Source: Eledone cirrhosa (lineage: Eukaryota). From it: a DNA stretch of 64,000 nucleotides. Below the pieces are notes generated by a model that worked only from the letters and a program-made list of their open reading frames with translations, did no database searches and was not told where the DNA came from. Position 1 is the first letter of the stretch, and each line of letters begins with the position of its first letter. This document shows positions 13,530 through 59,033 of this stretch, piece by piece. The stretch spans positions 48,856,001 through 48,920,000 of the forward strand of contig OZ024750.1 of the NCBI GenBank assembly GCA_964016885.1, read 5' to 3'. A program made the translations under genes and the position numbers.

Positions 13530-14270
13530 TACGTCAGGTCGCTATCGAGTGCTACTGGTCACCCAGTACAACCTGTCTCATGGTCGGATAGACGGTGACC
13601 ACATCGGCAACCTCACCAAGCTAGCTGCGTGAGGAAGGTGATATTTGAACACTCAGCGGGATGAAATACAAGATCCGGCAAACGGCGGAAGAGCTCAGCA
13701 GAGTCAACGGCCATACAAAGAGTAATTACACAGTACTTACACAGTAATTACACAAAGAGTACTTACACTGATTTTGAAAAGAGTAGTGGAAGAGATGATA
13801 AACTCCAACAGACAACTGGCTCTAGTTTTTGATACCTTTGACAGCATAAACAGAGACATTCTGTTTGAAATTCTACCCTTGCATGGAACACCAGCAAGAG
13901 TTATCGAAGCACTTAAGGCACTGTTTCTCAACACGAGTGCCACTATCGTCACACTTGTTGCCCCAACAAAGATCGTCGACATTATCATGTTACTAGACTA
14001 CGCCCTGAGATTCTCAATTGACAAAATCAATAACAAATGTATAATCATCAAACCCCGCATAAGCTCTACCCCCCCCCCCTCTAAACATCTCACTGGCCTT
14101 GACTTTGCAGATGACATTGCACTTCTTGCAGATTGCCTAAACAATGCGCAACAACTTTTAACATCTCTCCAACTAGCAGCCACACTCGTTGGCCTTTATC
14201 TCAACGAGGGTAAAACAGAGTAGATATCAAACTGTACAGGCAACAGCATCAAAGCAATTAACGCCAGTGA
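13530..14270 (+). mobile_element. RTE-like LINE RT fragment
   Basis: FDSINR..L..HGTP and LDFADDIALLA...VGLYLNEGKTE. Confidence 0.8.
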
Positions 14271-22520: not shown

Positions 22521-23081
22521 GGATAAACAACGTTATTCCTTTATTTTACGTTATTCTACGAGGCGGGCCGCGTTGTCGGTGTTTGTGGCCGGAGCAGTAA
22601 TAAATAGCAAAGTGACAGATATGAGGCGTACCATAACAAGCATGCAAATGCATCGCCCACCCAAAATAGACTCAACGATATTACTATATAGCTGGTAGCT
22701 ATTCATTCAGTTTATATTAACCTAGTTAGTGTGAGATACACATGATTCGAGATAACGAGCGACTGACAGACATAACCTGAGAGCGGTAAGGAGATGTGGA
22801 TAAAGAGTGATAAAGCTAGAGGAAGACATAATAATAACAGAAATAAAACTTCGCATGTGTACGACTATAATTTATGTAAGTATAAATATTAAACTGTTCA
22901 TCTAGTTATCTACGCACACGACAGACACACATACACACACACACGCACACGCACACACACACACACACACAACACACACGCATACACCCACACCCACACA
23001 TATGTCGGAATCTATATCTATATATCTATCTAGAAATTAAAAACCTTTTTTGTAGTGCAAACCATGTCAATCTTCTTTCCT

Positions 23082-24060: not shown

Positions 24061-24131
24061 CGTAGGTCCCGGGTTAAGTCGGGGATAACCACAGTAAGTA
24101 AGGTACTCAATACATGGCAGAGTAAAATTTT

Positions 24132-24255
24132 TTTTATTTTATAGAAGGAGCTTCTACAGGACTAGTACGGTTTCATTCAGATGAAATCTTCAGGAAGATT
24201 TCATCTGAATGAAACAGTACTAGTCCTGTAGAAGCTCCTTCTATGAAATAAAAAA
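24132..24255. repeat. Palindrome folded at a hammerhead core
   Basis: Minus strand of the left arm reads CTGAAGA-t-ttca-tc-tgaa-t-GAAAC...GTC; the right arm mirrors it. Confidence 0.85.
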
Positions 24256-30198: not shown

Positions 30199-30523
30199 AT
30201 GATCAAAAGAGGGTTAAAAGAGTTCCATGTATTATATTATGCGCATTTCAAAAACAAATATCATCATGCAATAACATTTGTCTTTTCGTCAGATAAAATA
30301 GGAAGACATGATATGAAGGTTAAAATACATTTGTGAATAGTGCAGTTTTAAATCAACATATATATGTTGATTTAAAACTGCACTACTGACAAGTGTATTT
30401 TAACCTTCATATCATGTCTTCCTATTTTATCTGACGAAAACACAAATGTTATTGCATGATGATATTTGTTTTTGAAATGCGCATAATAAAATACATGGAA
30501 CTCTTTTAACCATCTTTTGATCT
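30199..30523. repeat. About 325-bp palindrome carrying two divergently oriented hammerheads
   Basis: Centre aaatcaacatatatatgttgattt at about 30360. Confidence 0.9.
30427..30489 (+). ncRNA. Type I hammerhead ribozyme (mirror copy at about 30234-30296 on -)
   Basis: ttat-CTGACGA-long stem II-GAAA-TGCGCA-TA-ataa; palindromic stem III. Confidence 0.75.
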
Positions 30524-30616: not shown

Positions 30617-30788
30617 GGTTACACAATAGTTAGTTCACCTTACCGAGAACAATTGTTTCACCTTAGCGGATCCTCATCTCGTGATGGGCATGGCTATTAT
30701 TATAACCATGCCCATTACGAGCTGAGGATCCGCTAAGGTGAAACCATTGTTCTCTGTACGGTGAATTAACTGTTGTGTAACCACTTCT
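30612..30788. repeat. Palindrome with two hammerheads (30644-30681 on -, 30718-30755 on +), next to (AG)n
   Basis: cgag-(C/A)TGAGGA-tccgctaaggt-GAAAC-(A/C)ATT-GTT-ctc; degenerate relative at about 50080-50120. Confidence 0.85.
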
Positions 30789-30857
30789 ACCTAACTCCTC
30801 CCATGGACTGAGTGCTCTACCACTACGAATATTACCTTCCAGTGTTCGACCACTATA

Positions 30858-34764: not shown

Positions 34765-35503
34765 TACATATATAATACGTACATACATGCATACATTATT
34801 GACTGTTAAGAAAGAAAATAAAACTTCATTTATAAATTGATAGTGCGTTCAACAACTCGGATCAATATGATGTATAATACATTCGCAACTCAACGTAAGG
34901 GCGCCTTCAACTGACAAGGTCATATCGCTTATTCTTTCCTGGTGCTGATGCTTTGCTAAAGGTTGGTCTCAAAGAATAATCCTTGCCTGTAAATATATTT
35001 CCCTGGTGCATGAGCTCAAATATAGCATGGCATCTTCTATTGTGGATGGGGAAAATATACTAAATTGATTTTGGGATCAAGGGCAGCATGATGCATCAAC
35101 ATAATCTAACCGCAGTGATAGTATTACTATAGATAGTGGTTTAAATCTGAGAAGTGAACAATCATGATTGTTAATGAAGTGACATTTTACTTTTTAAAAG
35201 ATTAAACAATCTAGGTCACTGATTCATAGCAAGGCAGTTTAGTATAAAATAGAAACAAATAATGGCATTTGTCCTACTTTCAGCGATATCTGCAACACAG
35301 ATAATAATATTTGCAGTGAATGACGTGTTTCATATGTTGTGAATCTAAACATATTAAGACAGACACACAACGTGATATATTCAAAGAAAAAGACAGGAGA
35401 GTAGGATTAGACACGGAGTACATTGCGGAAAGTGAGTATAAAATTTAAATACTTCTCAATGTTATTGTTGTATTTACGGGTACATATATATTGACACTCA
35501 CGA

Positions 35504-41166: not shown

Positions 41167-43340
41167 TTATTGTTCATTTAGCTTGGGTTTGAATTTATCA
41201 ATAAAATTATTTTCTTTGATTTTTCTCTTGATTTCACTTGGGCTGTGTGATTTGTAGAATGGGAATATTATAAATATTCCCTGACCACATGTTGCCAGGT
41301 GGCTGCTTAGGGGTATCTGACGGACATTTGGGTCCCTGATTTGTTGACGGTGTACCCGTGCACATTCCTATAGTACATTTCCAGTTTGACCGACATATAG
41401 TTCTTCACAATTCGGGCATTTAATGCAGTTAATTAGATTTCTGCTTTTGCAGTTCATATTTGCATTTGGGAATATTTTTCCAGTTTTTGTTATCATATAT
41501 TGACCGGCGTGTATGGATTGACATGTGCCGCATCGATTATCATTGCATTTAGATACAGTGAATGATTGGTCTTTGTTGTTAAGGTCAAACTTTGCTTTGG
41601 TTAGCAATTGCTTCAAATTTTTTGGCTGTCTTTTACTAAGAGTCAAAGATCGATCTGTATTTAAGCCTTTTAATTCATTAATTTGAGCAATGATCGATAG
41701 GTTTGCTTTGGCAGTGTTGAAGATATTCTGGTGACATGGGTTGTGTGTCATTATAAATGGTATGACTAGTTCTTGGTTTCTTCTTCCTTGGGTTGTTCTA
41801 AGTTGTTGTATAGGTATTTTTATAGCCCGCTGTATGCCATTTTCTATAAGTAGAGATGGGTATTTTTGTTTGTGCAAAAATTCTCTTAGTTCTGTTAGGC
41901 GTTTGTACCTGGTATTCGTATCTTCTACAATGGTACAAATTCTTCTGGCTAGGCAGTATGGGATGTTGCGTTTTGTATGAGGTGGATGGCACGACTTAAA
42001 ATTCAGATATTGATGGGTGTCTGTGTGTTTATAATATATATCCGTGGTAATGGTGGTGTCGTTTTTGATTATCATTATATCTAGGAATGGTAAGTTGGTC
42101 CTACTCATCTCTTTTGTGAATTGGAGAGATGGGTGTAGGTTATTCAGGAGGATATTGAACTCATTCAGAGTATCTAGAGATTCTGTCCAGATGATGAAAC
42201 AGTCGTCAAGGTATCTCTACCAAGATTTTTCAATGTACTTTCTAAAGTCAGTACTATATTTTTCCTCTATTTCTTGGTAGAGTTGTTGTTCTAAGTATCT
42301 CATTACAGAGTTCGCGTAAACGGGAGCAAACTTCGTTCCCATCGCTGTGCCTCTAATTTGGATGTAATTCTTTCCATTGAAGAAGAAAGTGTTGTTTTCC
42401 AGAATAAGTTTAACTGCGTCTAATATAAATGGCGCTGTGAATCTAATGGGAATCACTTCTCTATGCTTTTCCACCCAGTATTTAACCGCCTTTATTCCTA
42501 AATCATGTGTAATGTTGGTGTAAAGGCTTACCACATCAAAACTGAGTAGAAGTGAATTCGTTTCCGTGGTTTTGGCAAGATGGGACAGGAAGTCGATATC
42601 ATCCCGGATGAAACTGGGTATGTGAATACATAGTGGTTTCAAAATAATGTCAACAAAATTGCTTAGACGGTGAGTGGGGCATGTTGGACCAGCTATAATA
42701 GGTCTAAGTTTTAAGTCCTTTGGGTGTAATAATTTAATGTACTCACTGTTTTGTTCTCTTACTGCCAGTTGTATTTCTTTTGATTTGTGAACTTTCGGTA
42801 GGCCATACAGGTTGCTGGGTTTCGGCCCAAAATTGGTGATGTAGTCTCTTTCCTTATCAGTAAATGAGTTGTGGTATTTTGAAGCCAGGTTGTTGATCTT
42901 CTTCATGATGTTGTGGTCTATATTTGACGGTATTTCATGATAGAATGTTGTGTCTTTCAGTTGTTCCTCAACCAAATCCTTATAGTATTCAGTATCCATT
43001 ATAACAACTGCACCCCCTTTATCTGCTTGTTTAATTATTATTGTTTTATCATTTTGTATACGTTTAAGTGCAGACATTTCTGATTTGTTAATGTTTGGCC
43101 TAACATTAGTATTATGTCTAAGAGGAAATTTAGACAGGATGTCAATGTATTGGTCGAGATAGGTATTTCTTCCTTTTGGCGGAGTGAAATTTGATTTATT
43201 CTTTACTAGTGATTCATCACTCTCATTATTTTTATCAGCGAAGAATTCTACAAGACGTAATTTTCGACAGAATTCTTGGGTATCCTCCTTCAGTTCTTGA
43301 TGGTTGACTGTTGGAGTCGGTGTGAATTTCAGTCCTTTTG
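41167..43340 (-). mobile_element. Neptune-type Penelope-like element ORF (RT, Zn linker, GIY-YIG), 5'-truncated, two premature TAG stops
   Basis: ADKGGAVV, YGLPKVHK, RPII, FDVVSLYTNI, GTAMG, RYLDD, LPFLD, CNDNRCGTC, CPNCEELYVGQT; one frame throughout, with stops at 42217 and 41368. Confidence 0.93.
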
Positions 43341-43574
43341 ACAGAATTTATATATATATATTTATCTCTCTCTTTCTATTTCCCTCTCTCTCTCTCTCTT
43401 CTTCCTTCTTTTTTCTTTCTTCTCTTTCTTTTTCCCTTTTCCTCTTTTTTTCCTTTTCTTCTATTTTCCTATATATTTCTTACTATAGTATTAATACATA
43501 TATTTCTGTCATATGTAGACTTACCACTTTCCTATAAACAAATGCTATTATGCCTCATATCATTGTAACTTATT

Positions 43575-44929: not shown

Positions 44930-45056
44930 TCCAGGTAGAAGGAGCAACGTGAAATAAAGTGTCTTGCTCAAGGACGTAACGCATCACCTGGTCCAGGAAT
45001 CGATCTCACAACCTTACGATTGCGAATCCAATTCTCTAACCACACAGCCACACGCA
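44930..45056 (-). mobile_element. Second tRNA-derived SINE family (degenerate copy at about 52905-52990 on +)
   Basis: A box TGGCTGTGTGG, B-box-like GATCGATTCC, conserved body tccttgagcaagacacttt. Confidence 0.75.
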
Positions 45057-52026: not shown

Positions 52027-52315
52027 AAAAAGAGATGAAATCGAAAATGCAGCTGGAGCCTTATTTAAAAAAAAATATATATATATATATTTGGTTCCTT
52101 TACCGGTTTCGCAGTTCTTCTGCTTTTCAAAAGTAGTGTTGAGATGGAGGGTCTGTGGTTTTTCTCACATCTGTGAGAAAAACCACAGACCCTCCATCTC
52201 AACTCTACTTTTGAAAAGCAGAAGAACTGCGAAACCGGTAAAGGAACCAAATAAATATATATATATATTTTTTTTAAATAAGGCTCCAGCTGAATTTTCG
52301 ATTTCATCTCTTTTT
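52027..52315. repeat. About 290-bp palindrome with degenerate hammerheads
   Basis: Centre ggtctgtggtttttctcaca-tc-tgtgagaaaaaccacagacc; ctt-TTGAAAA-GCAG-aagaa-CTGC-GAAAC-CG-GTA-aag. Confidence 0.88.
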
Positions 52316-52442: not shown

Positions 52443-53467
52443 ACACTTGAATGCATATTTTAAGTCACAAGTTTATATTAGCATCATTGTGAAGCAACTT
52501 CAGCGATAGTTGAGAAGAACATTTTTGATTTTATTTCTGGATAATGTTAATGAATGTCGGTAGAAGCAAAAATATATTTCTCGTTTCCATTGTTGCATGA
52601 TAATATGGGGATGACAATATTTCTCAATGCTTTAGGGAATTCTGTAATAATCTATTATATCCAGTCAGCCACTAAAATCTAACTTCTGCTTTTATATCTT
52701 GATACATTGCCTGGGTAAGTGTGATGAAAGGCAGATTAATGGACAACGACATAGTAAGTATTTTGCAGCACTGCATTTGTGCGCCTATACAATCATTTCA
52801 AGTACTGCATCAACATTAAATATGTCTTTTATGCGCAGTAGTGATATATATGATGAATGATACAATTTTACCAAATATTGTTCTAATGTACTTTTAGTGT
52901 GAACGTGCATGGCTTAGTGATGAGCATGTTGGGCTTACGGTAGTAAGATCATCGTTTCGGTTGGTTGTGTTCTTGGGAGAGTCACTTAAGATAGAAAAAT
53001 GTTGCATTAACAAATGTTCTAAAATGTATTGGCCTTATATAATATCGCCGGCGTGGAAAGTGGATATTATCCTGTAAAGGCAAGTACTGGTTTTCCATAA
53101 AACACAGTTTCGCTTTGAAATGTTTCTCTCCAGGTACGGATTCACGGTCAGACTTGACTAAACGGTGAGATTAGCTAGGAACTATTAATAGACGATTTTA
53201 GTTGTGTTACTTGGTTTGAAAAATATTTCTCTTCAGAGATCCTCCTGGATATGCATCTTGGAACATTGTTGGATTTCACAGTAGCGAACATATCTTCGAT
53301 AAATATATAAAATGTTTTGATATTGAATATCTAAACTCCTTAATATGTGTGAAATTCCTACGTCGGATTTAAGGAGGATAATTCAGTTCTACGATAGAAC
53401 AACAACCGATTTGTAAAGTAACTTATATGTGGTTCAATATTCTACTTACATGTGTACCACACATTTT

Positions 53468-53730
53468 TCTTCTTCTTCTTCTTCTTCTTCTTCTTCTTCT
53501 TCTTCTTCTTCTTCTTCTTCTTCAGTACCCACTTGTCTATTAGAGGCTCGTGGGTGCAGACAGAGTCCTCAAACATTCCTTCCAACTGGTCCTGTCCGAA
53601 GCAACCGTTTTCAATTCATCTGACTGGATCCCCAAGTGAGACCAGCCAAGCTAATGGTTGTTAACTAACTATTTTGCTCGGGGTCTACCTATGGGTTTCC
53701 TGGTAGATGATTTTCTCCGTGTTATGTGAC
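53468..53730 (-). mobile_element. RTE-like LINE 3' end with (GAA)n tail
   Basis: GRP...ELKTVASDRTSWK followed by (GAA)n on the minus strand. Confidence 0.6.
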
Positions 53731-53859
53731 TAATCCAAATAAATAATAAAAGATACAAATAATGAGATGTTTATAATTCATTTGTAAATTAGTTCAATTC
53801 TTTGTTTTATTATAAATTCATCGAACACTTTGCTATAAAATGGATTAGAACCACACTTT

Positions 53860-54330
53860 ACCTTTACATTTATCTTAAAGTTCTCTTTTTGTGAAAATGA
53901 AGACTAAATTGCTCAATATCTGTACACCTAGAAAACACCTTATATAAGTATTTACTTGCTTTAATGAAGAATAACTCAGTTGGAGCAGGTGTGTCATGTA
54001 TGGTCAGAATCAGACTTATTAATTTTGTTACTTCTGCCAGGGCTGGATTTAGTTCAAGTTCCCGATTCATGTCTGCAACTTCCAGGATGCTTGACACTTT
54101 ATTTACAAAATCTGCAGCATAGAATGATTTCAGCTTACAATTCACTCTATCCAAATCCAATATTTATATATAGATATCCAACGATGAATTCGCTTTCATC
54201 AGAATTTGTTATCGTAAGCGTGAAAAAGCTAATTTAGTTTCCAGTTCAAGCTTCAGTGTCTCTCTTCTGAGAATGATTGTATTTTTCTTCACTTCGAAGC
54301 TTCCTGTTGCAAAAGATCGAGAAAGTTGAG
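53860..54330 (-). mobile_element. hAT transposase C-terminal dimerisation domain remnant
   Basis: PALAEVTKLISLILTIH.TPAPTE..F resembles the P.T.A..ERSFS motif; frameshifted. Confidence 0.6.
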
Positions 54331-54750
54331 AGGAAACTGAGCTAACTGACATTTTCTAACGTAAAAAATGTTATTGGCATATAATAGTTTTTATTAAATC
54401 GATGCTTTAGTCAAACAAATAAGTTTACACCCTTACGTAGCTTTTAAAAAAAACAATTTAAAATATTTAAAATTAAATTTTAAGCCTTTGGAATGAATAT
54501 TTTGATGAAAACTTTATGATCTTCATTACAAAAATAAAATACAGAGTAGTCGTTACATGACTGAATCCGAATCATACAATAGTAGAATTAAAGGAACATT
54601 TCATGTGACAAACGTTCTGTATATACTCTACAATACACAATAATCATATGAAATAAACCAGAATCAGCGATGATTCTAAAATATACCCTGAAATGCAAGT
54701 CTTTGATCTCAGCCGCACGGGGAAATACGAAATCATCATCGATCCGCGGA

Positions 54751-54985
54751 AACAGGTAGGTATGCGAAATGCATTCAACTTTTGATTATCTCTCATTGAC
54801 TATCTATCGCTTACCTCTCTTGCCTCTTGCTCAATAGGTAAAATATTAATATATTAACAAAACTAACAACATTGCTTTTTTTTATTATGGCAGGTAAGTA
54901 ATATGAACAATACTAACGTTTATCTCCCACTCCTTTCCCCACAAATAAAAAGGTAAGTAATTTGTCTAATCATTTTCATTCACAG
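54751..54985 (+). promoter_or_regulatory. Chain of four abutting intron-like units (AG|GT recursive-splice-like sites)
   Basis: CAG|GTAGGT at 54755, TAG|GTAAAA at 54837, CAG|GTAAGT at 54893, AAG|GTAAGT at 54952, final acceptor CACAG at 54985. Branch-like motifs TTGAC, CTAAC, TACTAAC, CTAAT and pyrimidine tracts lie within the units. Confidence 0.5.
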
Positions 54986-55212
54986 TTTCCTAAGCAAGCA
55001 GACTGCTATGCTTACACTTTTTTTTAAAATAAAATATCGCTTGTTTACAATTTTTTTTCCGAAATAAAACAACGAGAAATAAAAAGTAAAAGAATATCAA
55101 GAGAACAATAACGATACAGAACATTATCAATAAACACATAAATTATTTATCCTGGAGATAACAATGATATGCACTGTAGTATTACATACGTAGAACTTTC
55201 GTCCTTGGTATG

Positions 55213-55274
<62 letters not shown>

Positions 55275-55468
55275 CAAATTCAGGACCCCAACAGCTGAGC
55301 TCCAGCCGTTTTGGCAACTAGATCCGAACTAAAGCGCCGGTATTAACGTTTTCATATTACCCACTCTACTGCCTCATGTATCAAGTACTCTGGGGAGTAA
55401 TGGTCTAACTGGTTTTTACCACCTTTAATCTGAATGAATGAATGAAAACCCCTCAATTTTAATGTTGT

Positions 55469-55572
55469 TTGTGTAAGGAAAAACCTGTGTGAGTATGTGT
55501 TTGCATGTGTGTAAGGAAAAACCTGTATGAGTAGGTGTGTGCATGTGCGTAAGGAAAGCTGTGTGAGTATGT
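55469..55572. repeat. About 38-bp minisatellite, roughly 3 copies
   Basis: gtgtaaggaaaaacctgtgtgagtatgtgtttgcat repeated. Confidence 0.75.
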
Positions 55573-55835
55573 GTATGATATATGTGCGTGTGTACATGGC
55601 TGTAAGTGTGTAAATATAGGGAGAACAGGTTTTAAGGTAAGAGAATAAAATGTGTCTGAGTATAGCTGGTCTGCAACATTTTATTTTTGGTTATTATCAG
55701 CTAGATGACCACTCAAAACCAATAAGGAATGTAACTGCTGGTAATATTAGTCGTGTCAAACTAGGCTAGGAAACGAATGTTCTTTAGACCAGACAGCTGG
55801 GATGTTGGCACGATAGTATATTTAGGTTGGACAAT

Positions 55836-56700
55836 TTAGATTAGCGATTGTGGCGAATTCCTTTCCATTCTATTATTGATGGGAGGGTTTAGTTGCTTAA
55901 TCAATAGGGCTTCAATGATACTCATCGTGCCTGTATTACTTTCGGCAGCCAAGATGGTGGTACTTTTATTACTGTCTCGATTTGTGTATTTGATATTGTG
56001 TTTGCAAAAGGAAGATGAGTTGGTCTTGATCTGTTCTTTAATTCGGATATGTAAGGGACGAATAGTGCTGCCTGGGTAGATTTGACTACACTTGTCTAAA
56101 CTGTATACCAAGTAGGCAACACTTAGTTTTGAGGATAGGACGAGTGGTTACGCTGCATCATTTATCTCAGCTGAAGAGTTGTTAATTCCAAGTTGTATTT
56201 GTAACTAATATTCCACAATGCTTCAAGCAAACTAACCATTTTATTATCCTTAAACCTGATCCCGGAACTGTTTCCAAAATCGCGAAGGGAATTTTTCGAT
56301 TAGTGGTGTCGATTAAATTAACTTCCTCAATCTTTGAGATTGAGGCATGGAATGACCAGCGAATTTCTTAAGAGTATTGAAGGTAATGTTGTCTGTGTGA
56401 GGTTTTGAAACGGATGACTGTTTATCTAAAACAATTCAGGAAAAGCGTGTGGCCGCAATATCGTTCTAAATTCATAAATATAATCTTATTAGTGAAATGT
56501 TTAGATATTCTAAATGAAATGTTCCAAGGATTGTTAGAATGCATGTTGTTCTATTGTAGTGATATATAAGGTTTGTAGGGGTAATAGAGCAAACATGTTA
56601 TGTTCAATGACACGGGGGAGAAATATTCTAGTAGTAACTTTCATTGGATTGTAATATTGCAGCCTAGGTTATAAAGAAGTATTGAGGAAGCTGGCAAACT
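55836..56700 (-). mobile_element. Degenerate PLE GIY-YIG and RT fragments
   Basis: VYSLDKCSQIYPGSTIRPLHIRIKEQ...IEALLIKQLNPPINNRME. Confidence 0.65.
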
Positions 56701-57249
56701 GCATTCGCAGTAAGAGGGTTCAGCATGTTTAGTGTGTAAAGTAATATAACGCGGTATATTGAGTACCTAATCAATGAGAACTGGGTTTCAATGATGTACA
56801 GGATGAAGGGAACATGAAATCGACCAATTCGCATGAGTATGCAAGTAGATATCTCTCTCCCTCTCTCTCTTTCTATCTCGCTATCTATATATCTCTTTTT
56901 ATCTCTCTGCCTTTATCTATCTATCTATCTATCTATCTATATCTCTCCCTCATTCTATATATACAAAGAGAGAGAGAGAGAGAGAATAAGTATCACAAAC
57001 TTAAAAACGTCGATTATTTTCGTGTAACAGAACGTCACATAATATTGTCACATTAGGCCATCATGTGAATTAAATTATTGATTCGATTAATGTTGATTAT
57101 GTATAGATGTATCGAGGATTAACTTGTATTTCAATACCATTAGTATGAAACTTCTCTCGTTGAAGGAATACAATTGAAAACACTTTAAGCTCTTTCTAAT
57201 CCTAAAACAAAATCACGCTGTTAACTATTTCGTTAATAATCACAGAAAA

Positions 57250-57273
57250 TGTCATCTTTATCTATTTTATCAG
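57250..57273 (+). promoter_or_regulatory. 3' splice acceptor immediately upstream of the UGT start codon (5' UTR intron)
   Basis: Pyrimidine-rich tcatctttatctattttatCAG followed by GAACATC-ATG; the exon would start 7 nt before the ATG. Confidence 0.65.
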
Positions 57274-57280
57274 GAACATC

Positions 57281-58798
57281 ATGAAAATAATGGAAAGCAT
57301 ATTCATCATCAAACTATGCACTTTTATTCATATCATTACTGTTAGCAGTGAAAATATTCTATATCTAGCATGGCCTGGCTACAGTCATGTAAAACCAATG
57401 ATTTCCATATCAAATGAATTAAGAAAATATGGGCATAATAGCTATTTCCCTCTGAATAAAAAACTCACTGAAGCTTTTCGAGACGAAAAGAACATTCATG
57501 TGTTACATATGGATGAAATACCAGAAACTGAAATGTTAAAAGCGCTGGTGCAGGAACGAGGTTCAACCAAAGGTATTGATGTACTACGAAAGGCATTGAG
57601 CTTTATTCCTATAATGTGCGACAGAGTGTTAACCAACGAAAAATGGATCGAATCTTTGAGAGAAGTCAATGCTAGTTTAGTTGTTGTCAATGGAATATTT
57701 ATGTCAAATTGCCTAACAATAATTCCTTATAAACTCTCAGTACCGTTTGTTTTCACAGGATCCGAGATATTTCCTAGTATCCATCGTATTCCATGGGCCC
57801 CCAATGTTTTCCCTAATGCAATGACCGGATTCACAGGCAAGATGACATATTTCGAAAAGTTGATAAATATTTTAGTTTCTATTATTGATTACACTATTCC
57901 TCCAATTGGATCGCCTACACACAGTGTCAAAACATACGCTAAAGACAAGCCTGATATTTCCTTCACTGATTTACTACACCAGGCACAGTTTTTCCTGATT
58001 GAAAGAGATGTACTGTTAGATTCTCCTCTATCACAACTTCCAAATGTAAGATATGTTGGAGGTCTTTCTGCCAAACATTCATTACCATTGAAGGGAGAAT
58101 TACTGCAATATGTGAATGCTTCTGAGAATGGAATAGTTCTTGTAACTTTTGGCAGTATGGTAAATAATCTGCCCGATGTTCAATTAGAAAAACTACAAAA
58201 TGCTTTTAAACGAATAAAATATGATGTTGTGTGGAGACAGAAGAAAATATCATTTTCTCATAAGAATATTTATCTAAGTGACTGGATTCCACAGAATGAC
58301 CTGCTTGGACATCCAAAAACTAAGTTGTTTGTTACTCACTGTGGTAATAGTGGCCAGTTCGAAGCTTTGTTCCATGGTGTACCAATGCTAGGGGTTCCTT
58401 TAGTAGTAGATCAACATTATAACGCTCGTCGAATGACTGACAAAGGATATGGTCTTTCCCTAGACATAGAGAACTTTTCTACTGAAGAATTGATAGACAA
58501 AATTAATGAGTTGATGGAAAATGATACATATTCTAAGAAGATTAAAAGAGCTAGTGAAATATTTCATTCTCGTCCTGAACCACCAGCGAAGAAAGCAGCC
58601 CGCCACATCGATCACATTTTAAAGTATGGTGGGACATATCTGAAATCTCCATGTCAAGAGAGTCCATTGTGGGAATTTCTTATGATCGATGTATTGTTTC
58701 CTATATGTGTAGTAACATTACTTCTGATATATTTCCTATATCTGATTGGGAAAAACTGTATAGTTTTTTGTTGGAGGAAGAAAGCAAAAACTGATTAA
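57281..58798 (+). CDS. Membrane-bound UDP-glycosyltransferase (GT1, UGT1/2-like), 505 aa, single coding exon
   Basis: Signal-peptide-like N-terminus, GYSH catalytic His36, UGT signature WIPQNDLLGHPKTKLFVTHCG...EALFHGVPMLGVPLVVDQ, C-terminal transmembrane helix and dilysine-type tail KKAKTD. Uninterrupted ORF. Confidence 0.96.
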   Translation: MKIMESIFIIKLCTFIHIITVSSENILYLAWPGYSHVKPMISISNELRKYGHNSYFPLNKKLTEAFRDEKNIHVLHMDEIPETEMLKALVQERGSTKGIDVLRKALSFIPIMCDRVLTNEKWIESLREVNASLVVVNGIFMSNCLTIIPYKLSVPFVFTGSEIFPSIHRIPWAPNVFPNAMTGFTGKMTYFEKLINILVSIIDYTIPPIGSPTHSVKTYAKDKPDISFTDLLHQAQFFLIERDVLLDSPLSQLPNVRYVGGLSAKHSLPLKGELLQYVNASENGIVLVTFGSMVNNLPDVQLEKLQNAFKRIKYDVVWRQKKISFSHKNIYLSDWIPQNDLLGHPKTKLFVTHCGNSGQFEALFHGVPMLGVPLVVDQHYNARRMTDKGYGLSLDIENFSTEELIDKINELMENDTYSKKIKRASEIFHSRPEPPAKKAARHIDHILKYGGTYLKSPCQESPLWEFLMIDVLFPICVVTLLLIYFLYLIGKNCIVFCWRKKAKTD

Positions 58799-59033
58799 AA
58801 TATTTCTTTTGTTAAACATTATTGTTGTAAACAATATAAATTGTTTTGTTTTATGTAACTCAAGTGTAGAAATAGTGCGTTTGTGTTTATGTTAGAGTTT
58901 TAATATGCTCTTTTTCAATAAGAATATGTGTGTTCTTTTTTGAACATAGTGGACCTTGACTCTTGAGGTCACTGGTTGTGACTTGGGGATAACTCATATG
59001 AACATAAAGCAAGATAAATGAAAAAGTAATAAT

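What the first reader, a model, noticed from the sequence alone, without database searches (positions are those of the whole stretch)
54751..54985. Four back-to-back mini-introns with zero-length exons (recursive-splice cassette) upstream of the UGT
Seen: in 235 bp there are four abutting GT...AG units of 82, 56, 59 and 33 nt (54756-54837, 54838-54893, 54894-54952, 54953-54985). Each has a branch-like motif (TTGAC, CTAAC, a perfect TACTAAC at 54911, CTAAT) and a pyrimidine tract, and the first three acceptors are directly followed by a donor, two of them perfect GTAAGT. The units are not sequence repeats of one another. Known: AG|GT ratchet points mediate recursive splicing, but usually far apart in very long introns. 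Inference: this is a compact ratchet array in a 5' leader, either of the UGT (same strand, acceptor at 57273) or of a neighbouring transposon.
Basis: partly seen in the sequence, partly recalled or inferred. Interest (0 to 1): 0.8.

Follow-up and report, generated by a model that had tools for sequence, protein, structure and literature searches.

The report
Transposon end remodelled into splice ratchets
The end of a dead jumping gene, lying in what appears to be a long intron of an octopod detoxifying-enzyme (UGT) gene, carries a tight row of splice signals that its sister copies lack; they likely act as stepping stones for cutting out the long intron rather than as four tiny introns, but no RNA has yet shown them in use.

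Summary
All motifs are at the stated coordinates. The 230 bp are the inner end of a decayed hAT-like DNA transposon (about 53740-55207, antisense to the UGT). Sister copies almost never have these GT donors, and none has the last AG, so this copy gained the signals. Eight of nine donor changes move toward consensus and none away, and every stray AG is gone; neutral decay of the family majority never matched the donor score (0 of 200,000). One run that behaves as RNA joins the UGT exon (57274) to two distant exons ending at 22875 and 35431, so for those transcripts the cassette is intronic (34.4 and 21.8 kb introns), not a leader. Four mini-introns removed in series is unlikely: donor-to-branch distances are 43, 28, 22 and 16 nt, against about 50 needed in human extracts. 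Best reading (0.4): chained ratchet points with 56-59 nt cryptic exons, as in Drosophila. No junction at any cassette site was seen. The scan noted other ratchet candidates in this genome (titin), but not this arrangement.

The parts
53740..55207 (-). Decayed, internally deleted hAT-like (DUF4371 type) DNA transposon copy; left end cut off, deletion junction at about 54230/54233, terminal-repeat-like end at about 55207
   Evidence: dispersed copies, best 79% identical; transposase remnants on - strand; DUF4371 E 1.3e-5 in sister copy L054, below the curated cut-off; no hit for the window's own fragments; shared ends
54713..54755 (+). Possible 43-nt exon (or end of a first exon) upstream of the cassette; the acceptor-like site at 54712 is ancestral in the family; 7 CpG in 54700-54770
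   Evidence: sequence, alignment, CpG count; use inferred only
54756..54765 (+). Gained donors CAG|GTAGGT (54756) and TAG|GTATGC (54760); no pyrimidine tract or branch site abuts them upstream
   Evidence: (AG|GT at 54756 in 0 of 16 sisters)
54796..54843 (+). Candidate ratchet point 1: branch TTGAC (A 54799), pyrimidine tract, TAG|GTAAAA at 54837|54838; acceptor ancestral, GT gained
   Evidence: (AG in 12 of 20 sisters, AG|GT in 1 of 20)
54838..54893 (+). 56-nt segment, candidate cryptic RS-exon; holds an ATG (54887) that would open a 5-codon uORF overlapping the UGT start if the segment were kept
   Evidence: inferred
54863..54899 (+). Candidate ratchet point 2, the best one: CTAAC (A 54866), T tract, CAG|GTAAGT at 54893|54894; three changes from the family majority
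   Evidence: (AG|GT in 2 of 17 sisters, none perfect)
54894..54952 (+). 59-nt segment, candidate cryptic RS-exon; ATG 54903 would add 19 residues in frame to the UGT if the segment were kept
   Evidence: inferred
54911..54958 (+). Candidate ratchet point 3: gained TACTAAC (A 54916), C/T tract, AAG|GTAAGT at 54952|54953
   Evidence: (AG|GT in 0 of 18 sisters)
54966..54985 (+). Gained last acceptor: CTAAT (A 54969), T tract, CAG at 54983-54985, with no donor behind it
   Evidence: (AG in 0 of 19 sisters)
54944..55134 (+). Five AATAAA hexamers (54944, 55028, 55063, 55078, 55129) absent from the family majority
   Evidence: 29 of 100,000 neutral simulations reach five; 2 of 18 sisters have three or four
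22846..22875 (+). 3' end of a distant non-coding exon joined to 57274; donor TAT|GTAAGT at 22876; intron 34,398 nt
   Evidence: inferred from the mixed loose-end consensus
35402..35431 (+). 3' end of a second distant non-coding exon joined to 57274; donor AAA|GTGAGT at 35432; intron 21,842 nt
   Evidence: same inference
57274..58798 (+). UGT coding exon (acceptor 57273, ATG 57281, 505 aa in one exon), first of five tandem paralogs on C10
   Evidence: PF00201, E 4e-71; 73% to an Octopus bimaculoides UGT

Best explanation
The cassette is the inner end of a dead hAT-like transposon copy that has gained splice donors and acceptors which its sister copies almost never have, and it likely serves as a chain of recursive-splicing ratchet points inside the inferred 22-34 kb first introns of the UGT.

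Inferred mechanism: a distant first exon (ending 22875 or 35431) splices onto one of the acceptors at 54837, 54893 or 54952. The next donor, 56-59 nt downstream, defines a cryptic exon so that the acceptor is recognised. The GT that directly follows the acceptor then becomes the new donor and splices to 57273, leaving no trace in the mRNA. The sites would be alternatives, each serving as the cryptic-exon donor for the one before, not four introns cut in series. At 54837 the regenerated donor (GTAAAA) is weak, so the 56-nt segment with its uORF may sometimes be kept and damp translation.

Shown: the motifs, the transposon origin, and that this copy alone has the full set. Inferred from one run: the intronic position. 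Untested: any splicing at the cassette.
For: Gain in one copy: AG|GT at the homologous columns in 0 of 16, 1 of 20, 2 of 17 and 0 of 18 sisters, and the last AG in 0 of 19. The copy nests inside the family (95/95 clade of 11 rows), and no copy over 79% identical was found.

Direction of change: 8 toward, 0 away, 1 same-class change in the four donor 9-mers. 0 of 200,000 neutral simulations reach the donor score and 1 reaches a chain of three.

Acceptor side, with donors held fixed: at most one other AG in 4,111 of 200,000 simulations, a last acceptor with branch in 1,070, both in 20. The window has 0 stray AG against 5-11 in 19 sisters.

Setting: two loose-ended X4 records at 57274 are explained 30 of 30 by window exons ending at 22875 and 35431, both followed by GT donors; 100 shuffled targets reached 18-25. 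Spacing of 56 and 59 nt, a long intron and alternative start sites match Drosophila ratchet points such as Bx (about 50-nt cryptic exon, 31-kb intron; PMC8605326, abstract and introduction).
Against: No junction into or out of any cassette site was seen. The sites lie only 2.3-2.5 kb from the end of a 22-34 kb intron, so they barely subdivide it, and one ratchet point would do.

The first donors (54756/54760) have no abutting acceptor and the last acceptor (54985) has no donor; both are gained, and this model does not need them. AG before GT is also part of the donor consensus, and the pyrimidine tracts are inherited from the transposon. TACTAAC alone arises in 5.5% of neutral simulations.

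The excess divergence in the cassette (58/245 against 25/182 upstream, Fisher p 0.013) is nearly matched by sister L009 (50/222 against 27/182). All statistics are post hoc. Conservation between species, a hallmark of fly ratchet points, could not be tested.
Confidence: 0.4

Rival explanations
1. Third, local promoter. The transposon's promoter region drives a + strand leader for the UGT. Exon 1 ends at 54755/54759 (or at later donors for later start sites), and interleaved introns of normal size (54756-54837, 54838-54952, 54894-54985) or direct splices to 57273 give alternative 5' UTRs.
For: The strongest signal is on donors. The first donor was built where no acceptor abuts. 7 CpG in 54700-54770 against 0-4 in most sisters. 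The gene already has two alternative upstream exons. Skip-one pairings give donor-to-branch distances of 75-78 nt. Keeping 54894-54952 is in frame with the UGT.
Against: The two joins found at 57274 both come from distant exons. CpG over the whole aligned stretch is ordinary (16, sisters 0-32). The last acceptor has no good donor behind it before a weak TTG|GTATGT at 55208.
Confidence: 0.22
2. Splice-and-stop trap. Transcripts from the distant first exons are diverted to the cassette's acceptors (above all 54985) and polyadenylated at the AATAAA cluster, giving a short non-coding RNA and lowering UGT output; the donors are the escape route.
For: The last acceptor is gained and has no donor. 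Five AATAAA are gained (29 of 100,000 simulations). X4 has depth 9.06 in the bin 54867-55047, which ends just behind AATAAA 55028. No fetched sister copy matched at 90% or more over 22 nt wholly inside that bin.
Against: Two of 18 sisters reach three or four AATAAA through A-tract changes. The X4 depth could not be assigned to a record; DNA runs also show extra depth in that bin, so cross-mapping from unsampled copies (151 candidates) is possible.
Confidence: 0.14
3. Chance. A transposon end that already held pyrimidine tracts and near-donor motifs (AG|GCAAGC, AG|GAAAAA, GG|GAAAGC) drifted into the pattern, and a genome-wide search picked the extreme case; nothing is spliced there.
For: The family majority is one or two changes from a donor at each junction and is an internal duplication. 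One chain of three with two perfect donors arose in 5,642 Mb of shuffles. C>T is the commonest change in the cassette (13 of 60). The statistics are post hoc.
Against: 0 of 200,000 template-based simulations for donors, and an independent 20 of 200,000 for the acceptor side. No AG-free chain of three in 3,469 Mb.
Confidence: 0.15
4. One reading: four abutting mini-introns removed one after another, leaving zero-length exons.
For: Each unit has donor, branch motif, pyrimidine tract and AG in order, with no AG between branch and acceptor. Both outer sites are gained, so 54756-54985 looks self-contained.
Against: Donor-to-branch distances are 43, 28, 22 and 16 nt. In human extracts 46 nt abolished splicing of one substrate and 35 nt abolished assembly on another (PMC6692369, passages). 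The limit in cephalopods is not known to me.
Confidence: 0.05

Closest known systems
Drosophila intronic ratchet points with cryptic RS-exons (Ubx, kuz, Bx; PMC8605326, abstract and introduction read)
   Same: Fused acceptor|donor with CAG|GTAAGT consensus, a second donor about 50-60 nt downstream, a long intron, and isoforms with different start sites
   Different: Three sites chained within 115 nt, each donor bounding the previous cryptic exon; built from a transposon copy and young, where fly sites are described as highly conserved; close to the intron's 3' end; no RNA proof
Rat alpha-tropomyosin pseudo-exon / zero-length exon (as described in PMC2773006 and PMC5126111, passages)
   Same: An acceptor followed at once by a donor, which can act as a zero-length exon or as an included exon that lowers expression
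   Different: There a single site in a coding region coupled to nonsense-mediated decay; here several sites upstream of the start codon, where inclusion would add a uORF or an N-terminal extension
Maize Ds/Ds1 hAT elements spliced from host RNA (PMC5432752, passages)
   Same: hAT-type element offering several donors and acceptors on the strand opposite the transposase
   Different: Ds1 sites lie within 35 bp of the termini and are features of the element family; here they lie 220-450 bp inside, are fused AG|GT sites, and are missing from the family majority
Exonisation of antisense transposon copies (Alu type; recalled, search listings only)
   Same: An inherited pyrimidine tract and AG supply the acceptor, and a few point changes supply the donor
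   Different: Four to five donors gained, each internal one directly behind an acceptor, with all other AG lost; no included exon seen

Membership tests
Intronic ratchet point with cryptic RS-exon | Acceptor (branch, pyrimidine tract, AG) fused to a GT donor | tested here: met
   54837|54838, 54893|54894, 54952|54953; 54893|54894 matches the full consensus quoted in PMC2773006
Intronic ratchet point with cryptic RS-exon | Lies in a long intron of a transcribed gene | tested here: met
   Inferred 21.8 and 34.4 kb introns from one run that behaves as RNA but is not on record as RNA
Intronic ratchet point with cryptic RS-exon | Downstream donor about 50 nt away defining a cryptic exon | tested here: met
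   56 nt (54838 to 54894) and 59 nt (54894 to 54953); not met for the third site, which has no near donor behind it
Intronic ratchet point with cryptic RS-exon | Splicing intermediates (upstream exon joined to the site), lariats or saw-tooth nascent RNA | tested here: inconclusive
   Only assembled contigs of one run; no X4 joint listed; depth 9.06 at 54867-55047 unassigned
Intronic ratchet point with cryptic RS-exon | Sites conserved between species | not testable with these tools
   No related genome held; all four runs are one organism
U2-type mini-introns removed in series | Donor-to-branch distance long enough for assembly (about 50 nt in human extracts) | tested here: not met
   43, 28, 22 and 16 nt against PMC6692369 passages; cephalopod limit unknown
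hAT DNA transposon (DUF4371 type) | Transposase homology | tested here: inconclusive
   DUF4371 E 1.3e-5, 25.6 bits against cut-off 32.1, in a 131-aa fragment of sister L054; 0 of 2 window fragments hit
hAT DNA transposon (DUF4371 type) | Dispersed copies with short terminal inverted repeats | tested here: met
   30-52 matches per search; sisters share one end in ...CCCTTCGCCCCTG and the other in CAGTGGTGAAGG..., read by eye
hAT DNA transposon (DUF4371 type) | 8-bp target-site duplication | not tested
   The window copy has lost its left end
Ds1-like hAT elements that carry splice sites as a family trait | Splice sites shared by the copies and near the termini | tested here: not met
   GT donors missing from the family majority and rare in sisters; 220-450 bp from the end
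Splice-junction minisatellite | Head-to-tail copies of one exon-intron junction | tested here: not met
   The window's halves do not align above shuffles; the old duplication is two units of transposon sequence whose majority lacks the donors

The most novel reading that the evidence does not exclude
A dead DNA transposon was remodelled by point mutation into a chained ratchet array in which each recursive site supplies the exon-defining donor for the one before. It gives the UGT's distant promoters a choice between silent pass-through, a uORF-bearing exon and early termination. This would be the birth of recursive splice sites caught with the ancestral state still readable in sister copies, in a mollusc.
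Probability: 0.3. Interest if true: 0.75.

Novelty: new variant of a known kind. Interest (0 to 1): 0.52.

Why it matters
How ratchet points arise is hard to study because known ones are old and conserved. Here sister transposon copies give the starting sequence, so each change that built the sites can be listed (about 8 at donors, plus gained branch sites, a gained acceptor and lost AGs) and reverted in a minigene. If the sites are used, it would show recursive splicing in a cephalopod, a chained layout I did not find described, and a transposon-derived control point on a detoxification gene. If they are unused, it is a caution on how easily a purine-rich transposon end mimics splice signals on its other strand.

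Tried and rejected
No RNA holder listed: none of the 4 runs found is on record as RNA. X4 is treated as RNA only because its cover starts sharply at 57274 with loose ends. X4 has no cover at 54686-54866 or 55048-55228, and no X4 joint is listed in 53600-59000; contigs drop rare forms, so this is not counted for or against.

Searching the printed loose-end consensus as one sequence found nothing; it proved to be a mix of two exons. A genome-wide pattern for three close AG|GT donors returned 4,405 matches; the 100 listed were nearly all micro- and minisatellites, so it was useless as background. No near-identical copy of the cassette was found (these searches score only the best candidates). The hAT piece is not repeated in the 50 kb downstream that holds four UGT paralogs, nor within 1.5 kb of seven C14 paralogs. 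The two distant exons have no detectable homology to each other.

Rfam gave only SCARNA7 at 55153-55305, 28.5 bits against 65, over a GT microsatellite: rejected. Six of 27 UGT homologues were read and none has the 19-residue extension; they are other species, so this is uninformative. Polymorphism in DNA runs (differences at 54688 and 54719, none listed inside the cassette; table cut) is too sparse to test constraint.

Paper searches for chained or transposon-derived ratchet points and for cephalopod recursive splicing (one unrelated listing) showed no title or abstract describing this. The library lacks most subscription papers, and no supplements were read.

Full report
Observation. A fifth donor at 54760 was missed. 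I defined a unit as AG|GTR, then 30-100 nt with a YTRAY branch motif and a pyrimidine tract, then AG|GTR. The cassette is the only chain of two or more units in 488,804 bases of real sequence on both strands. But only 9,034 of 80,088 shuffled units lack an inner AG, 1,272 are followed by a clean last acceptor, and no AG-free chain of three appeared in 3,469 Mb. The real cassette has all of these. The statistics were chosen after seeing the sequence.

What the DNA is. The genome is a 3.0-Gb assembly; the neighbouring gene is a one-exon UGT (PF00201) whose closest named relatives are octopod (73% to Octopus bimaculoides). The cassette lies inside a dispersed repeat (30 matches) spanning about 53740-55207. 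Sister copies hold transposase remnants on the minus strand. One 131-aa fragment matches DUF4371 below its curated cut-off, and copies share short inverted-repeat-like ends (read by eye). I call it hAT-like; linking DUF4371 and such ends to hAT is recalled knowledge. The window copy has an internal deletion at about 54230 and has lost its left end. The cassette is 220-450 bp inside the transposase's 5' end, on the opposite strand. In the family majority this region is a tandem duplication (score 79.5, highest of 1,000 shuffles 51), no longer visible in the window copy (267 of 1,000 shuffles reach its score). On the transposase strand the majority has good donors (GAGAG|GTAAGTG); those purine-rich stretches are the pyrimidine tracts of the + strand.

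The signals are gained in this copy. Of 26 non-redundant loci given to the profile search, 25 aligned (duplicate loci of the same place were dropped first). At the homologous columns AG|GT occurs in 0 of 16, 1 of 20, 2 of 17 and 0 of 18 sisters, and the last AG in 0 of 19. None of 20 sisters scored has a perfect donor or a single complete unit. A tree of 19 rows (rows under 400 nt, L008 and L010 left out) puts the window inside a 95/95 clade with an end branch of 0.23 against a median of 0.13; L009 (0.29) and L007 (0.20) are also long. No copy closer than 79% was found. Against the majority of the 12 closest sisters the window differs at 58 of 245 cassette sites and 25 of 182 upstream sites (Fisher p 0.013), though L009 is similar (50/222, 27/182). 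In the four donor 9-mers, 8 changes go toward MAG|GTRAGT, none away, one stays in class. Placing the same substitutions at random, 0 of 200,000 runs reach the donor score, 9 give two perfect donors and 1 gives a chain of three. Because AG is also part of the donor consensus, I tested the acceptor side with donors held fixed: at most one other AG in 4,111 of 200,000, a last acceptor with branch in 1,070, both in 20. The window has no stray AG where 19 sisters have 5-11, while AG counts outside the cassette are ordinary. TACTAAC by itself is weak evidence (5.5% of simulations). Five AATAAA were also gained (29 of 100,000; 2 of 18 sisters have three or four).

Where it sits in the transcript. Four runs of one study hold the region, none on record as RNA. 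X4 behaves as RNA: its contig starts exactly at 57274, and two records have loose ends there. Their printed 30-letter consensus was not found as one sequence. Assuming the tool takes the alphabetically first letter where two records differ, one pair of window 30-mers explains all 30 letters: 22846-22875 and 35402-35431, followed by GTAAGT and GTGAGT. The next best pair explains 27, and 100 shuffled targets reach 18-25. So the UGT has at least two distant non-coding exons, and for those transcripts the cassette lies in introns of 34,398 and 21,842 nt, 2.3-2.5 kb from their end. This rests on one run and on that assumption. X4 also has depth 9.06 in the bin 54867-55047. The records behind it were not displayed, so it is open whether this is a terminal exon of this locus or cross-mapping; none of the fetched sisters matches at 90% over 22 nt wholly inside that bin, but DNA runs show extra depth there too.

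How it most likely works. As four introns in series the units are badly built: donor-to-branch distances are 43, 28, 22 and 16 nt. The human system needs about 50; 46 abolished splicing of one substrate and 35 abolished assembly on another (PMC6692369, passages). The branch sites and acceptors are better read as partners of a distant donor. In Drosophila a ratchet point is a fused acceptor|donor in a long intron, recognised through a cryptic exon of about 50 nt that ends at a second donor, and the Bx site lies in a 31-kb intron of an isoform with its own start site (PMC8605326, abstract and introduction). Here 54837|54838 has a donor 56 nt on, and 54893|54894 (CAG|GTAAGT) has one 59 nt on. Joined to the distant exons, 54894 and 54953 would regenerate TAT|GTAAGT or AAA|GTAAGT, about as good as the exons' own donors, whereas 54838 (GTAAAA) would be weak and favour keeping the 56-nt exon. 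That exon carries a 5-codon uORF overlapping the UGT start; the 59-nt exon would add 19 residues in frame. I put this reading at 0.4. It does not explain why three sites are needed so near the intron's end, nor the gained first donor and last acceptor. A third local promoter (0.22) explains the donors, and a splice-and-polyadenylate trap (0.14) explains the last acceptor, the AATAAA cluster and perhaps the X4 depth. Chance (0.15) and the literal mini-intron series (0.05) remain. The first three are not exclusive.

Comparison with what is known. It works like a Drosophila ratchet point by anatomy, but membership is unproven: intermediates were not seen and conservation could not be tested. It differs from Ds1, whose 3 donors and 2 acceptors lie within 35 bp of the termini as a family trait (PMC5432752, passages). 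Zero-length exons and invertebrate enrichment of ratchet motifs are described in PMC2773006 and PMC5126111 (passages); a link between pseudoexons and ratchet points in PMC7175933 (passages). Searches for chained or transposon-derived ratchet points and for cephalopod recursive splicing (listings only) showed nothing that describes this arrangement; the library is incomplete and no supplements were read. Earlier scan notes report ratchet candidates in a titin-like gene and splice-junction minisatellites in this genome (not checked here), nothing near this window and nothing for this combination of words.

Verdict. A real, single-copy gain of splice signals in a transposon remnant, function unproven: new variant of a known kind, interest 0.52.

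Noticed in passing
window 22846-22875 and 35402-35431: Two distant alternative non-coding exons splice to the one-exon UGT; their donors look alike (GTRAGTATAAA) but the exons show no BLAST homology. Whether they also feed the four downstream paralogs is unknown.
   Followed up: partly
G000:C10:48913281-48964644 and C14:31776348-31887900: Two clusters of one-exon UGT paralogs (five on C10, six in this C14 cluster and one more at C14:39.85 Mb); most have an acceptor-like site shortly before the ATG.
   Followed up: partly
window 53100-53140: A lone ratchet-like site (pyrimidine tract, CCAG|GTACGG at 53133|53134) in the same long intron, 1.6 kb upstream of the cassette; weaker ones at 44935 and 30539.
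   Followed up: no
window 54814 and about 54576, minus strand: The transposon family majority has a strong donor (GAGAG|GTAAGTG) and an acceptor-like tract on the transposase strand, suggesting an intron in the transposase's own 5' leader; the window copy keeps the donor but has lost the acceptor-like tract.
   Followed up: no
window 57312: Runs X1, X3 and X4 carry a 6-base in-frame insertion in the UGT signal-peptide region relative to the assembly: a second allele.
   Followed up: no
window 54532-54682 and 55535-55801: Two exact-match X4 contigs at depth 2.3 and 3.8 inside the intron: pre-mRNA or DNA background.
   Followed up: no
window 41368-43347 (-) and 13726-14223 (+): Broken reverse-transcriptase frames with weak RVT_1 matches, probably LINE remnants.
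   Followed up: no
window 24130-24250, 30340-30480, 30640-30790, 52090-52310: Several long near-perfect local palindromes (foldback duplications of 60-110 bp), seen by eye.
   Followed up: no
G000:C1:326928381-326928628, C1:421956336-421956964, C1:19503403-19504332: Minisatellites whose 30-70 bp unit contains AG|GTAAGT.
   Followed up: no
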